From Escherichia coli (GTDB lineage: Bacteria; Pseudomonadota; Gammaproteobacteria; Enterobacterales; Enterobacteriaceae): DNA of 64,000 nt. This document shows positions 12,601 through 15,600 of this stretch, piece by piece (position 1 is the stretch's first letter; each line of letters begins with the position of its first letter). The position numbers were made by a program. The stretch lies in the NCBI RefSeq assembly GCF_003018115.1, contig NZ_CP027457.1; one strand, 5' to 3'.

Positions 12601-15600
12601 TCATGGCACGTAATTTTTTCAGATGAGCTTCTTGTTCTGTTTCTGCCAGAATTTGTCGGTATTCCTGGTGATCGATTCGTTCAAACAGTTCATTAAAATC
12701 GTTTATTTTTACCGACTGTGTTCGTCCATCCATTCTTCTGTACAACACGATGTTATTTATGCAGTGAATAATTTTGACCGGGTAACCGGCACTGTCGGTA
12801 TACAGTTGTCCTTGATTAATCAAATCGAACATTTTTTCTCCTGTTCTCTGAATAGCGAGAACTTCAGAGCCGTATATTTGTAGCGGGTTCAATACTGATA
12901 ATTTCTGCAGCTACAAGCATTCCAGCAAGCCAGCTCTCTCCGGACAGGTCTTCATCCTGACATATCAGTTCGCCAATATTAATGGTGGCCATGATATCTG
13001 TTCCCCCTGTGCGCTCATCCTCGACTTCTTCATAAGGCAGTGTTGCGTACAGGCTTTCAATAGCGCAACTGATAACATCCAGTCCGGTCAGATTGCCGCC
13101 GACAGTAACTTCGAATGTTTCGCGGTATTCCCATAACCCGAAAGTTAATCGAACGGTTTGTTTTGCCATGCGTCCGCATGACGTCAGATTCGGGTCATAG
13201 TTCATTATTTGCGGTTGGGCATTATGGGTGTTCATCTGCTTTTCCCTTAGCCCGGCGGCCTGCCGGGCATATAAGTTATTTAACCTGGATAAATGGTGTA
13301 TTGGCACCGCTGGTCATGTATTGCGGCAGTGTGCCGTTCCATTTATTGATGGCTTCCAGCTCCATAACACCGGGGTTCTGGCGCAGAGCTTCACCGCGTA
13401 AACGAATAGCATCGGCTTCGGCCTGGGCTTTTGTGCGAATGGCGTCAGCCTGTCCGGCTGCTTCCGCGCGCAACATGTTGGCTTCCGCTTCGCGCTGTTT
13501 TACTTCCTGTTCGCGTTGCAGGGTTTTCTGGTTCGCTGTGACTTTGGCATTAATGCTGTCGATCACGGTTGGCGGGTATTCCGGTTTACCGACATAAGAG
13601 AGGCTCATTACCTGAATGCCGATGGGGGTCATTTCTGCCTGAATATCTTTAAGTGCTGAATCCAGCAGTTCAGACTTGCCACCGTCGATAAATTTATCGG
13701 TGGTCATTTTGCTGGCCAGTCGGTTGAGTGCGTCGGCTATCTTCTGGCGCAGGTCAGTGTCGGTAATGTCATCCACGCCTTTGCGGTAGGTTTGAAACAC
13801 TGTAGTAACTTTGGATGGATCAACCTTGTAGGCCACACCGATGTGATAGCCGATGGTTGTGCCGTCACTCATCTGAAAGCTGAACGGTTCATCGTAGGTC
13901 TTCATTTGCTTGAAGGTGGGGAAGATGTAAACTTCAGTATTCCAGCCAGTCCAGTAGCGACCAACACCGACCACCTCACCGACGCCTTTATCGTCGCCCA
14001 GTTTATTTACTTTGATGCCAACATTACCGGGCTCAACGCGATCGCAACCGACAAGACCAATGGTCGGCAGAACAATGGCTAAAGCAAAAATAATTTTTTT
14101 CATTTTTTATCCTTAGTGAAAGAAAGACCCTTGTAAATGGCATAAATGCAGGGCGGGGTCAGAAACGCCAGTGCAAAGCCAGAAATAACTGCTCTCGTAT
14201 CCTTCATGGATATAAGGAACGGAACGAGTAATCCGTAAATGCATGCGATAATTGCCAGTAAAATTACTATTGTGAAATACAGTCTCATTGGTATGTGGTA
14301 TCCCGATATTTTTAACTGACAGACAGCGCAATAAAGAGAATAATGATTTCTGTTAGTGTCAGTACTGTGGCAAGGATTAAAAGCAGTTTTACTCTGCTTA
14401 ATTCACGGTCGCTTTTCATATAAACGGTTAGTAAAAAACGGAAGAGTTATATTCTTCTTAATATTTAATGTGTCACTGGCCTTCTGGCATACCATGAGTA
14501 TTCAGGTCGTTAATCATTTCATCCAGAAGGAGTTCAAGCCCTTCTCGACCTATATCTGAAAGAATGAAACCTTTATCAGGGGAAGTGGTGAGCATTTTCT
14601 GATAAAGAAACAGCGCTCTTCCCATTCCATCAGCTTCGCCATATGTTTGAATTAAATTCCATTCAATATACTGCTGTAAGGCAAACCGAATGGGACTAGG
14701 GTATATAGTCATAACTCCATGCTTCCCGTTATATATTACGGCGCGATCTGTTGTTCCGTGTTCATTCGGGACATCAATTGTGCCGTTCTTGTCTTCTTCT
14801 TCGTTGATGAATGTCGTCACATACAACCATCGCCACTGGGCAACCTTCATCTCAACCGGAAGTTTTCCCAGTAATCCTGCTTCGTCAGCTTGCGCGAGAC
14901 ACTGAAGGATACGTAAACCTCGCACATTAGGAGTATCGAATTCTCCAGCATCCAGAGGGCGTATGGCGTCGTGATAATCAATAGTCATACTGCCTGTTTG
15001 TATACCATTGGCTGTTGCTTCAGCCTGGAATTCAGCGTAGTGCATGAAATTTATTCCTCATCTTCATCTGCTGGTGCAATAACGTCATATCCTGCCTTTT
15101 CTGCAATAAACAGGAATGTTGAAAGATTTCCTACAAATTCATCGTCATGAACATGACGAATTAATATTACTTTCCCGTTTTTGATGGTCAGCAATACTCT
15201 GGTTTGTTCGTGTTCTGCTGTTTTCTGATGCATTATTATCTCCCGTATGCTTTACGCAGAAACAAGCAGGCAATATGCATGTGATTTTTCCCGTGTTGTG
15301 CAATAAGGCAGGCTGTTTTGTGTGATGCCTTATGTTTTATAAAAGTCATAATAAAACCTCCTGTGGATTAAGTGTGTGATAATCCCCGGCGATTAAGCCG
15401 TAATATAGTATCTGGAGATGACTTGTTCTATTTAACTGGATAGTTCTTTTTCAGCTGCTGCTTCAGCATAGCAACGTGCAAATTCAAGAACTTCATCACC
15501 TGTTCTTTTTATTGCGTCGTTGTCTGACATTTGTAATACGATAACTGCGCATAATAAATTATGGATATTGTTTGCAAAGGAATCCGGTGCCAGGCATAAG

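What the first reader, a model, noticed from the sequence alone, without database searches (positions are those of the whole stretch)
13276..14419. Phage-encoded SPFH/Band-7 lipoprotein coupled to small membrane proteins in the early-left accessory operon
Seen in the sequence: a 275-aa SPFH-domain protein with lipobox LVGC and a long Ala/Glu/Arg/Gln-rich coiled coil. It is translationally coupled (4-nt overlap) to a 62-aa two-TM protein. A possible 35-aa single-TM ORF precedes them. All sit in the int-proximal region, where lambdoid phages usually carry exclusion or accessory genes. Established knowledge: cellular SPFH proteins (HflK/HflC, QmcA, YqiK) are typically paired with a small membrane partner, and HflKC modulates FtsH, the protease that controls lambda CII/CIII. 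Inference: this could be a prophage membrane module for superinfection exclusion or abortive infection, or a modulator of FtsH. The latter is notable because I could not find any cII or cIII homologue in this phage. I know of no described function for such a phage module.
Basis: partly seen in the sequence, partly recalled or inferred. Interest (0 to 1): 0.6.

Follow-up and report, generated by a model that had tools for sequence, protein, structure and literature searches.

The report
Phage SPFH lipoprotein with hairpin partner
This prophage carries a two-gene membrane cassette, a tiny two-helix inner-membrane protein plus a lipid-anchored SPFH (HflK/prohibitin-like) scaffold protein, that is an ancient bacterial module copied into hundreds of unrelated phages including the classic virulent phage N4, with a function nobody has yet tested.

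Summary
On the minus strand lie a 275-aa SPFH/Band-7 lipoprotein (13276-14103; Pfam E=7.6e-31) and a 62-aa two-helix membrane protein (14100-14288), joined by an ATGA stop/start overlap. The pair is a real unit. The same small gene sits directly upstream of the SPFH gene in phiP27-like, P2-like, P1-like, SSU5, N4 (gp19/gp20), PVP-SE1 and Burkholderia phages. It also sits there in about 60 of 80 divergent chromosomal loci from many phyla, and about 10% of divergent homologues are in-frame fusions of the two. The 35-aa ORF is not part of the unit: it is absent from other backbones, has no RBS and shows no frame-specific constraint. The partner is not NfeD. The SPFH protein is not an HflK/HflC, flotillin or QmcA family member, and nothing matches PADLOC. 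The model (pLDDT 92.7) resembles the cage-forming SPFH proteins. The Asp after the lipobox Cys predicts an inner-membrane, periplasm-facing location like HflK/C. Because the cassette also occurs in strictly virulent phages and in ordinary chromosomes, a lysogeny-specific or prophage-defence role is weakened. Function remains untested. Most likely it is a periplasmic-face membrane scaffold used early in infection.

The parts
13276..14103 (-). SPFH/Band-7 lipoprotein gene (275 aa): signal peptide and lipobox at residues 1-20, SPFH alpha/beta domain about 19-175, 65-residue helix 177-241, short helix 243-253, conserved C-terminal K-W-x-G-x-L-P motif
   Evidence: Pfam Band_7 E=7.6e-31. phrog_200. 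AF2 model pLDDT 92.7. Foldseek hits to HflK/C, erlin, prohibitin and stomatin cages. pN/pS 0.024. W254 invariant, and G256 and P259 nearly invariant, over 85 divergent homologues.
14044..14103 (-). Lipoprotein signal peptide with lipobox L-V-G-C. Cys20 is encoded at 14044-14046 and is followed by Asp at +2 (14041-14043).
   Evidence: Read directly from the sequence. The motif GC-D-RVEPG is conserved in all enterobacterial phage copies. Asp+2 as an inner-membrane retention (Lol-avoidance) signal is established E. coli knowledge and was not tested here.
14100..14288 (-). 62-aa inner-membrane helical-hairpin partner gene, translationally coupled to the SPFH gene (ATGA overlap). It has a conserved turn motif P-x-[LM]-[ILV]-S-x-x-[ST] (here P23-F-L-I-S-M-K-D-T) and a basic C-terminal tail.
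   Evidence: phrog_1130 E=1e-22. pN/pS 0.37 in frame against 1.97 and 0.98 out of frame. Hairpin model. Conserved directly upstream of, or fused to, the SPFH gene across phages and phyla.
13250..13268 (-). GC-rich stem-loop (GCCCGGC-N5-GCCGGGC) immediately after the SPFH stop codon. It marks the 3' boundary of the cassette. It has no U-tract, so it is not a canonical terminator.
   Evidence: Fold dG -18.4 kcal/mol, but z only -1.2. An equivalent stem-loop follows the SPFH stop in Fraca and P88, and canonical terminators do so in N4 and SSU5.
14312..14419 (-). 35-aa hydrophobic ORF. It is adjacent to, but NOT part of, the conserved cassette, and its coding status is unproven.
   Evidence: Absent next to the cassette in P88, P1-like, Fraca, N4 and SSU5. 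Replaced by a 130-aa or a 92-aa gene in about 40% of phiP27-like loci. No RBS. No frame-specific constraint. No family hit.

Best explanation
The locus is a two-gene cassette that builds a membrane scaffold on the periplasmic face of the inner membrane.

Shown:
- The 275-aa protein is an SPFH-domain lipoprotein.
- The 62-aa protein is a two-helix hairpin.
- The two genes are translationally coupled, are co-inherited across unrelated phages and distant bacterial phyla, and are sometimes fused into one polypeptide.

Inferred mechanism:
- The SPFH protein is exported and lipidated on Cys20. Because of Asp at +2 it is kept in the outer leaflet of the inner membrane, so its SPFH domain sits in the periplasm, as in HflK/C.
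- Through its 65-residue helix and the invariant C-terminal KW-G-LP motif it oligomerises into a ring or cage, as every solved SPFH protein does.
- The hairpin partner has its conserved Pro-x-Leu-Ile-Ser turn at the periplasmic membrane surface. It supplies the transmembrane element that this TM-less SPFH protein lacks, and either anchors or delimits the enclosed membrane patch.

Inferred role:
- It is a cellular membrane-organising module captured by phages as an accessory gene (moron) and expressed with early or middle genes.
- It conditions the inner membrane of the infected cell.
- The most plausible specific effects are stabilising the membrane, or insulating membrane proteins from FtsH-type quality control. 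Hindering entry of a second phage genome is the next possibility.
- It is not a lysogeny-specific switch or a classical prophage defence system.
For: - SPFH identity and lipobox.
- Structure: the high-confidence model has an SPFH domain, a long helix and a C-terminal tail. Its best structural neighbours are the cage-forming HflK/HflC, erlin, prohibitin, stomatin, QmcA and flotillin proteins. The profile's closest solved relatives are prohibitin (5e-11) and HflK/C (2e-7 to 4e-7), which are the exoplasmic-face SPFH proteins.
- Pair conservation in phages: P88, P1-like and Fraca; N4 gp19/gp20, SSU5 061/062, phi644-2 gp37, PVP-SE1 gene 116 and PAN70_041.
- Pair conservation in chromosomes: 47 loci by filter, about 11 more by eye, 3 fusions and 2 interrupted copies among 80 divergent chromosomal loci.
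- Natural fusions: 15 of the 150 representatives carry the 2-TM module in frame, followed by a signal peptide with lipobox and then the SPFH domain.
- Chromosomal, non-phage context in Dyella and Leptospira.
- Strong purifying selection on both genes.
- Early or middle position in lytic programmes: the P88 early operon between cox and gene A, and N4 after its RNAP II genes.
- Present in 383 phage records, including virulent ones.
- Partner modelled as a hairpin, with invariant P23 and nearly invariant G37.
Against: - No experiment exists for any member in a phage context.
- Oligomerisation, topology and the physical contact between the two proteins are inferred.
- The +2 residue is Asp only in the enterobacterial clade. 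Elsewhere it is Thr, Ser or Gly, and Tyr in N4, so some members could be sorted to the outer membrane. The Pasteurella prophage HflK/C-like protein PM0222 was reported in outer-membrane vesicles (PMC9872710). Its homology to this subfamily was not checked.
- The partner is dispensable in some lineages: the Bacteroidota/Ignavibacteria clade, PaP4, phiEa104, and an E. coli/Shigella solo variant.
- The window and P88 share a 94% identical SPFH protein, but their partners are only 27% identical. Any contact must therefore rely on a few conserved residues.
- No FtsH gene is linked to the pair.
Confidence: 0.45

Rival explanations
1. Superinfection exclusion or defence module. The periplasm-facing SPFH lipoprotein plus hairpin protein block DNA entry of incoming phages at the inner membrane, or trigger abortive infection. 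This would resemble the T4 Imm/Sp pair or the lipoproteins Llp and Cor.
For: - The genes are membrane-located and early-expressed, and they sit in accessory regions.
- In N4 the cassette lies next to gp18, which is annotated 'superinfection exclusion, similar to P22 gp17'.
- The cassette is mobile between phage backbones like a moron, with its own 3' stem-loop.
- Exclusion is useful to both virulent and temperate phages.
Against: - There is no hit to any of 5027 PADLOC models.
- The family is ancient and keeps 35-50% identity to chromosomal copies that sit in housekeeping neighbourhoods in Dyella and Leptospira. Known exclusion proteins are narrow and fast-evolving.
- The SPFH gene is under extreme purifying selection (pN/pS 0.024), not the diversifying pattern typical of arms-race genes.
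- In P88 the cassette lies in the repressed early lytic operon, so it would not protect a lysogen.
Confidence: 0.2
2. FtsH modulator (HflK/C mimic). The phage SPFH ring sequesters or shields FtsH, or competes with HflKC, and thereby stabilises phage proteins. In temperate phages this would bias the lysis/lysogeny decision in place of cIII.
For: - The closest solved relatives by profile and by fold are prohibitin and HflK/C, which both cage FtsH-family AAA proteases on the exoplasmic membrane face.
- The predicted periplasmic orientation matches HflK/C.
- The window phage has no lambda-type cII/cIII.
- The idea has been floated in the literature (PMC8540360).
Against: - NCBIfam HflK and HflC equivalog scores are far below their cutoffs: 22.7 against 159 and 24.9 against 134.
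- Identity to HflK/C is only 16-20%.
- There is one gene rather than a K/C paralogue pair, and a lipid anchor instead of an N-terminal TM helix.
- The cassette is present in many obligately lytic phages, where a lysogeny decision is irrelevant.
- No FtsH gene lies near the pair in 89 loci. This is only a weak argument, because E. coli hflKC is also unlinked to ftsH.
Confidence: 0.13
3. Lysogenic-conversion or virulence factor. The lipoprotein is displayed or released (for example in outer-membrane vesicles) and acts on the animal host as a TLR1/2 agonist, as reported for the prophage-encoded HflK/C-like protein PM0222 of Pasteurella multocida.
For: - PMC9872710 reports a prophage HflK/C-like SPFH protein that is secreted in OMVs, activates TLR1/2 and contributes to virulence in mice.
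- The window is a phiP27-like Stx-type prophage of pathogenic E. coli.
Against: - The same cassette is in virulent phages of soil, plant and marine bacteria and in free-living bacteria.
- Asp+2 predicts inner-membrane retention in E. coli.
- Any triacylated lipoprotein activates TLR2, so that activity is not specific.
- Homology of PM0222 to this subfamily was not verified here.
Confidence: 0.07
4. Lysis-timing control. The SPFH ring corrals holin or pinholin molecules, or stabilises the energised membrane, and thereby delays lysis. This could contribute to N4's unexplained lysis inhibition.
For: - N4 shows an hours-long lysis inhibition whose mechanism is unsolved (bioRxiv 10.1101/2025.11.12.688109), and N4 carries the cassette.
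- SPFH proteins are membrane-protein corrals.
Against: - The cassette is never in the lysis gene cluster in the genomes examined.
- Most carriers are not known to show lysis inhibition.
- The N4 lysis study does not mention gp19 or gp20.
Confidence: 0.07

Closest known systems
HflK/HflC (E. coli FtsH-modulating SPFH cage)
   Same: SPFH domain followed by a long helix and a C-terminal oligomerisation segment. Predicted periplasm-facing orientation on the inner membrane. Top Foldseek hits (7vhq_E 9e-15).
   Different: Only 16-20% identity. Fails the HflK and HflC equivalog models. It is a single gene rather than a K/C pair. It has a lipid anchor instead of an N-terminal TM helix. Its dedicated partner is a 62-aa hairpin protein. 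No link to FtsH is shown.
Prohibitin 1/2 and erlin 1/2 (eukaryotic exoplasmic-face SPFH cages)
   Same: Prohibitin gives the best profile-to-sequence match among solved proteins (5e-11), and the erlins give the highest TM-scores (0.57-0.61). The domain order is the same.
   Different: These are eukaryotic organellar proteins that form hetero-oligomers of two paralogues with N-terminal TM anchors. Identity is about 15-18%.
QmcA-YbbJ and other SPFH-NfeD operons
   Same: A two-gene operon of an SPFH scaffold plus a small membrane partner. Gene fusions of the two partners occur in both systems.
   Different: The partner here has no NfeD or OB-fold domain and no similarity to YbbJ. QmcA faces the cytoplasm and has a TM anchor. 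In this cassette the small gene is upstream.
Phage N4 gp19 (membrane protein) and gp20 (lipoprotein); PHROG families phrog_1130 and phrog_200
   Same: True homologues of the window pair: gp20 is 62% identical and gp19 carries the same motif GFLLPSMVSALDS. They have the same overlapping gene arrangement.
   Different: These are only annotated ORFs. No function was found in the searched literature. N4 gp20 has Tyr rather than Asp at +2.
T4 Imm/Sp and lipoprotein exclusion factors (T5 Llp, phi80 Cor)
   Same: Small inner-membrane protein and/or periplasmic lipoprotein, made early by phages.
   Different: No sequence or fold relationship was found. The comparison is from general knowledge only. 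Those proteins are narrow in distribution, whereas this module is ancient and also cellular.

Membership tests
SPFH / Band 7 superfamily (Pfam PF01145) | Significant match to the Band_7 domain model above the gathering score | tested here: met
   108 bits against a cutoff of 23.6, E=7.6e-31, covering model positions 2-176 of 176.
SPFH / Band 7 superfamily (Pfam PF01145) | SPFH alpha/beta fold followed by a long coiled-coil helix, as in the solved cage-forming members | tested here: met
   AF2 model pLDDT 92.7 with strands 19-93 and 162-174, helices 95-157 and H177-241. 71 PDB matches at E<=1e-3, all of the best 50 listed being SPFH-family cages, isolated SPFH domains or the major vault protein.
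SPFH / Band 7 superfamily (Pfam PF01145) | Assembly into large ring or cage oligomers on a membrane | not testable with these tools
   Only monomer prediction was available. It is inferred from the invariant C-terminal KW-G-LP motif and from the family's general behaviour.
HflK / HflC (FtsH modulators) | Match to the HflK or HflC equivalog models above cutoff | tested here: not met
   TIGR01933 22.7 bits against 159.4. TIGR01932 24.9 against 134.4. NF008181 18.1 against 660. NF008259 18.6 against 427.
HflK / HflC (FtsH modulators) | Two adjacent paralogous SPFH genes, each with an N-terminal transmembrane anchor | tested here: not met
   There is a single SPFH gene with a lipoprotein signal peptide. 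The neighbouring gene is a 62-aa hairpin protein.
HflK / HflC (FtsH modulators) | Physical and functional association with FtsH | not testable with these tools
   No FtsH-like gene within +-3.5 kb in 89 loci, which is uninformative either way.
SPFH-NfeD operon (e.g. QmcA-YbbJ, YqiK-YqiJ, PH1511-PH1510) | Partner protein carries an NfeD domain (membrane region plus C-terminal OB fold, with or without a ClpP-like protease) | tested here: not met
   The 62-aa partner and 22 homologues have no NfeD or any consistent Pfam hit. The partner profile does not find YbbJ of 8z5g at E<=10. It is too short for an OB fold.
Bacterial flotillin (FloT/FloA/YqiK) | Match to the flotillin model or flotillin-type extended EA-rich region | tested here: not met
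   NF058507 FloT 16.1 bits against a cutoff of 700. Flotillin structures rank below HflK/C, erlin and prohibitin.
Bacterial lipoprotein (Lgt/LspA substrates) | N-terminal signal peptide ending in a lipobox [LVI][ASTVI][GAS]C | tested here: met
   MKKIIFALAIVLPTIGLVGC. A lipobox Cys lies immediately before the conserved V-x-P-G-x-V-G core in 98 of 150 divergent representatives by a strict regex, and in more by eye.
Bacterial lipoprotein (Lgt/LspA substrates) | Inner-membrane retention signal (Asp at +2 in Enterobacterales) | tested here: met
   Cys20-Asp21-Arg22 in the window and in all close phage copies. Actual localisation was not tested.
Known anti-phage defence systems (PADLOC-DB v2.0.0) | Match of any cassette protein to a defence-system model | tested here: not met
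   Zero families at E<=0.1 for the SPFH protein, the 62-aa protein, the 35-aa ORF and both flanking genes.
Phage moron (self-contained accessory cassette) | Same cassette inserted in unrelated phage backbones at different positions, delimited by its own signals | tested here: met
   Found in phiP27-like, P2-like, P1-like, Hendrixvirinae, SSU5 and N4 backbones. A stem-loop or terminator follows the stop codon. No convincing own promoter was found.

The most novel reading that the evidence does not exclude
Many tailed phages, both virulent and temperate, deploy a captured cellular nanocage early in infection. The cage is a lipid-anchored periplasmic SPFH ring nucleated by a 60-aa hairpin protein, and it fences off patches of the host inner membrane. 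This would be a general, so far unrecognised host-takeover step. It could control access of the FtsH protease, of holins or of incoming phage DNA to the membrane. The hairpin partner would define a new, non-NfeD class of SPFH co-factor that is also used by bacteria from Leptospira to Dyella.
Probability: 0.25. Interest if true: 0.7.

Novelty: new variant of a known kind. Interest (0 to 1): 0.5.

Why it matters
SPFH proteins (HflK/C, prohibitin, stomatin, flotillin, erlin) are now understood as membrane cages, but what most bacterial ones enclose is unknown.

This subfamily is unusual in three ways:
- It is lipid-anchored rather than TM-anchored.
- Its obligate-looking partner is a 60-aa hairpin rather than NfeD.
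- It has been captured repeatedly by phages. It occurs in 383 phage records, in about 10% of complete E. coli genomes, and in phage-plasmids.

Because the model phage N4 carries it as gp19/gp20, the question 'why do phages need an SPFH scaffold?' can be tested directly with simple deletions. The answer would also inform the function of the chromosomal homologues.

For genome annotation, the common labels 'serine protease', 'transposase fusion protein' and 'peptidyl-tRNA hydrolase' attached to this gene in phage records are probably wrong.

Tried and rejected
1. NfeD partner: rejected. The partner has no Pfam or NfeD hit and no YbbJ match.
2. HflK/HflC or flotillin membership: rejected on the equivalog scores.
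3. Known defence system: no PADLOC hit.
4. The three-gene module: rejected. The 35-aa ORF is not co-inherited and has neither an RBS nor a coding signal.
5. Prophage-only distribution: rejected.
6. FtsH gene linkage: none found in 89 loci. This is uninformative.
7. Own sigma-70 promoter for the cassette: the scans were at or below the chance expectation.
8. The post-stop hairpin as a significant structure: the energy z-score is only -1.2. It is kept only as a positional observation that recurs across backbones.
9. First IMG/VR scan with the single protein: it returned only 97-100% identical copies.
10. Genome scan with the 85-sequence alignment: it failed because there was no conserved stretch to search with. 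An 11-sequence alignment worked.
The window concatenation together with natural fusions ran, but coordinates are not exposed, so no interface analysis was possible.
12. Literature searches for any experimental link between SPFH proteins and phage exclusion, defence or N4 gp19/gp20: nothing found.
13. The third homologous-protein search and the remaining fold searches were not used. They would not have discriminated between the functional hypotheses.
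Full report
WHAT IS THERE

The window region is the leftward, int-proximal arm of a phiP27-like Stx-type prophage of E. coli.
- The stretch 13200-14500 is 100% identical to chromosomal DNA of E. coli O178:H19 2012C-4431, O91 RM7190 and others. 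The stretch 12800-15100 is 90-95% identical to phiP27 and to Stx2-converting phages.
- On the minus strand the gene order is: CI-like repressor (16486-17265), a 244-aa double-HTH protein (15629-16363), small ORFs, a phrog_1515 gene (14473-15045), the 35-aa ORF (14312-14419), the 62-aa ORF (14100-14288), the 275-aa SPFH gene (13276-14103), DUF5406, DUF4222, excisionase and integrase.

The 275-aa protein:
- It is an unambiguous SPFH/Band-7 protein (PF01145, 108 bits, E=7.6e-31).
- It has a lipoprotein signal peptide ending in L-V-G-C.
- Residues 177-241 are 52% A/E/R/Q.

The 62-aa gene:
- It overlaps the SPFH start by ATGA.
- The SPFH Shine-Dalgarno (TAAGGA) lies inside its last codons.

THE PAIR IS A UNIT; THE TRIO IS NOT

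The same arrangement, a 60-80-aa two-helix ORF ending at or overlapping the SPFH start, is found in unrelated backbones:
- P2-like P88, a P1-like phage-plasmid (where the small gene is unannotated), and the Hendrixvirinae phage Fraca.
- SSU5 (061/062), N4 (gp19/gp20), Burkholderia phi644-2 (gp37), PVP-SE1 (gene 116, one gene removed) and Pseudomonas PAN70 (041).
- Probably a crAss-like phage, as an unannotated ORF.

The small proteins are very divergent. The window and P88 versions are 27% identical over 44 residues. They nevertheless share one architecture and one motif between the helices: G-x3-P-x-[LM]-[ILV]-S-x-x-[ST]. Pro23 is invariant and Gly37 nearly invariant in 23 sequences.

An exhaustive search of 1.84 billion representative proteins found 227 clusters at E<1e-30 with full-length similarity.
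- Of the best 150, 15 carry the two-helix module in frame, with the motif or a variant of it, followed by a signal peptide with lipobox and then the SPFH domain. This is Rosetta-stone evidence for a functional pair.

In 80 divergent genomic loci the partner status was:
- A separate ORF next to the SPFH gene in 47 loci by an automatic filter, and in about 11 more by inspection.
- Fused in 3 loci.
- Interrupted in 2 loci.
- Absent mainly from the most distant Bacteroidota/Ignavibacteria clade.

Among phiP27-like copies both genes are under purifying selection:
- SPFH: pN/pS 0.024.
- Partner: 0.37 in frame, against 1.97 and 0.98 out of frame.

The 35-aa ORF behaves differently:
- It is absent from all the other backbones.
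- In about 40% of phiP27-like loci it is replaced by a 130-aa or a 92-aa gene.
- It lacks any RBS.
- It shows no frame-specific constraint: 0.64 against 0.56 and 1.28.

WHERE THE MODULE COMES FROM

The module is not phage-specific.
- In Dyella (about 30 species) it lies between blaI/blaR1-like genes, DUF2076 and ribonucleotide reductase.
- In Leptospira it lies between succinate dehydrogenase genes and an EAL-domain gene.
- It also occurs in Sutterella, Cupriavidus, Bacteroidota and other groups.

It is also not prophage-specific.
- A protein-level search of 50,697 phage records found it in 383.
- These include obligately virulent groups: N4-like, PVP-SE1-like, FelixO1-like, Bruynoghevirus, phiCbK-like, crAss-like, and jumbo and Lak phages.

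In E. coli:
- 559 of 5426 complete genomes carry a match.
- 226 of the 645 places are on plasmids. These are presumably P1/SSU5-type phage-plasmids, given the hits to such phages.

In P88 the cassette is inside the early lytic operon between cox and gene A. In N4 it follows the RNAP II genes.

Each backbone has a stem-loop directly after the SPFH stop. These are canonical terminators in N4 and SSU5, and a GC hairpin without a U-tract in the window (13250-13268), Fraca and P88.

The cassette thus behaves as a mobile accessory unit (a moron) of cellular origin.

STRUCTURE AND LIKELY MECHANISM

With an 85-sequence alignment AlphaFold2 gives a confident model (pLDDT 92.7). It has an SPFH alpha/beta domain (about 19-175), a single 65-residue helix (177-241), a short helix and a flexible tail.

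Foldseek against the PDB returns only SPFH cage proteins and the related major vault protein at the top: HflK and HflC (9e-15), erlin1/2, prohibitin1/2, stomatin, QmcA and flotillin. Identity is 14-20%. By sequence profile the nearest solved proteins are prohibitin (5e-11) and HflK/C (about 1e-7).

The most conserved residues of the whole subfamily are G47 and the C-terminal K-W-x-G-x-L-P motif (W254 is invariant). They lie where other SPFH proteins form the cap of the cage. I infer ring or cage formation from this; it is not shown.

The residue after the lipidated Cys is Asp in all enterobacterial copies. By the established +2 rule this retains a lipoprotein in the E. coli inner membrane. The SPFH domain should therefore sit on the periplasmic face, like HflK/C and unlike QmcA and YqiK. 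This is an inference.

The partner is modelled as a helical hairpin (H2-27, turn M28-K29-D30, H31-53; pLDDT 85-92).
- It has a Lys-rich C-terminal tail. The positive-inside rule then puts both termini in the cytoplasm and the conserved turn at the periplasmic surface.
- The order in the natural fusions (hairpin, then signal peptide, then SPFH) requires exactly this topology.
- I therefore propose that the hairpin provides the transmembrane element that this lipid-anchored SPFH protein lacks.

WHAT IT IS NOT

- **HflK/HflC:** NCBIfam equivalog scores are 5-35 times below their cutoffs.
- **Flotillin:** the FloT model scores 16 bits against a cutoff of 700.
- **SPFH-NfeD pair:** the partner has no NfeD domain and no similarity to YbbJ.
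- **Known defence system:** there is no PADLOC hit.

FUNCTION

No experimental work on a phage member was found.
- Genome papers note the gene and call its role unclear (PMC13239085; PMC8540360).
- The latter paper already raised the HflKC-FtsH-lysogeny idea and noted that strictly lytic phages contradict it.
- A Pasteurella prophage 'HflK/C-like' protein was reported as an OMV-borne TLR1/2 agonist (PMC9872710). Its homology to this subfamily was not verified.

Four observations favour a generic membrane-organising or stabilising role during infection over a lysogeny switch or an arms-race defence gene:
- The module has cellular homologues in ordinary chromosomal neighbourhoods.
- It is under extreme purifying selection.
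- It sits in early or middle positions of lytic programmes.
- It is present in virulent phages.

Within that frame the candidate specific effects are insulation of membrane proteins from FtsH-type quality control, hindrance of secondary DNA entry, and control of holin triggering. None is demonstrated. No FtsH gene is linked to the pair in 89 loci, which is uninformative.

VERDICT

It needs three corrections:
- It is a pair, not a trio.
- The partner is not NfeD-like.
- The module is neither prophage-specific nor lysogeny-specific.

It is a new variant of a known kind: a lipid-anchored, probably periplasmic SPFH scaffold with a dedicated hairpin partner, widely captured by phages. The existence of the genes is already recorded as N4 gp19/gp20 and as phrog_1130/phrog_200. 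What appears to be undescribed is the pairing, the natural fusions and the cellular origin. Interest is moderate (0.5), because the question is open, broad and directly testable in N4.

Noticed in passing
window 13276-14288 compared with L001 (P88) 3968-4998: Mosaic pattern. The mature SPFH protein is 94% identical between the window and P88, but the signal peptides differ and the upstream partners are only 27% identical. This suggests a recombination breakpoint at the signal-peptide/mature-protein boundary, or the swapping of partner alleles.
   Followed up: partly
window 13235-13307: The DUF5406 gene listed as starting at GTG 13307, which overlaps the SPFH 3' end by 32 nt, more likely starts at the ATG at 13235. 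That ATG has an AAGGGA RBS just after the hairpin, and the PHROG match begins at residue 25 of the long ORF.
   Followed up: partly
window 15629-16363 (minus strand): A 244-aa protein with two HTH_3-type domains falls in phrog_4836, labelled 'CII-like regulator'. It also matches PADLOC RmrA/HTH models through its HTH domains. It lies between the CI-like repressor and the accessory genes, and its role is unknown.
   Followed up: no
L002 3864-3939 (P1-like phage MH422554): A tRNA-Met (anticodon CAT) gene lies immediately downstream of the SPFH cassette, where the other backbones have a stem-loop or terminator.
   Followed up: yes
L085 and L086 (Shigella flexneri and E. coli chromosomes), SPFH at 3501-4322: A 96%-identical SPFH lipoprotein without any upstream partner ORF. 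It sits in a prophage (anti-repressor and RusA downstream) with an IS transposase about 1.3 kb upstream. The closest protein cluster, P0001 (named from Shigella boydii), has 1366 member sequences, so a solo form may be common and may be a natural partner knockout.
   Followed up: partly
L165 2907-3221 (phage N4 gp18): The gene immediately upstream of the N4 cassette is annotated 'superinfection exclusion, similar to P22 gp17'. The adjacency could be meaningful or could be coincidental.
   Followed up: no
L171 1142-2847 (phage PVP-SE1 genes 116-120): The SPFH gene (118) is embedded in a cluster of small membrane-protein genes. Gene 116 is the motif-bearing partner, and genes 119 and 120 encode further 1-TM and 2-TM proteins.
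   Followed up: no
phage records: The SPFH gene is variously annotated as 'serine protease', 'transposase fusion protein', 'putative transposase', 'peptidyl-tRNA hydrolase' and '2-polyprenylphenol hydrolase'. No protease or transposase domain was found in the window protein, so these labels look like propagated errors.
   Followed up: partly
L093 (Candidatus Symbiopectobacterium), just upstream of 3501: The partner ORF carries an in-frame stop, while the SPFH reading frame is also truncated (a 50-aa ORF). This is consistent with pseudogenisation of the whole cassette in a degenerating symbiont genome.
   Followed up: no
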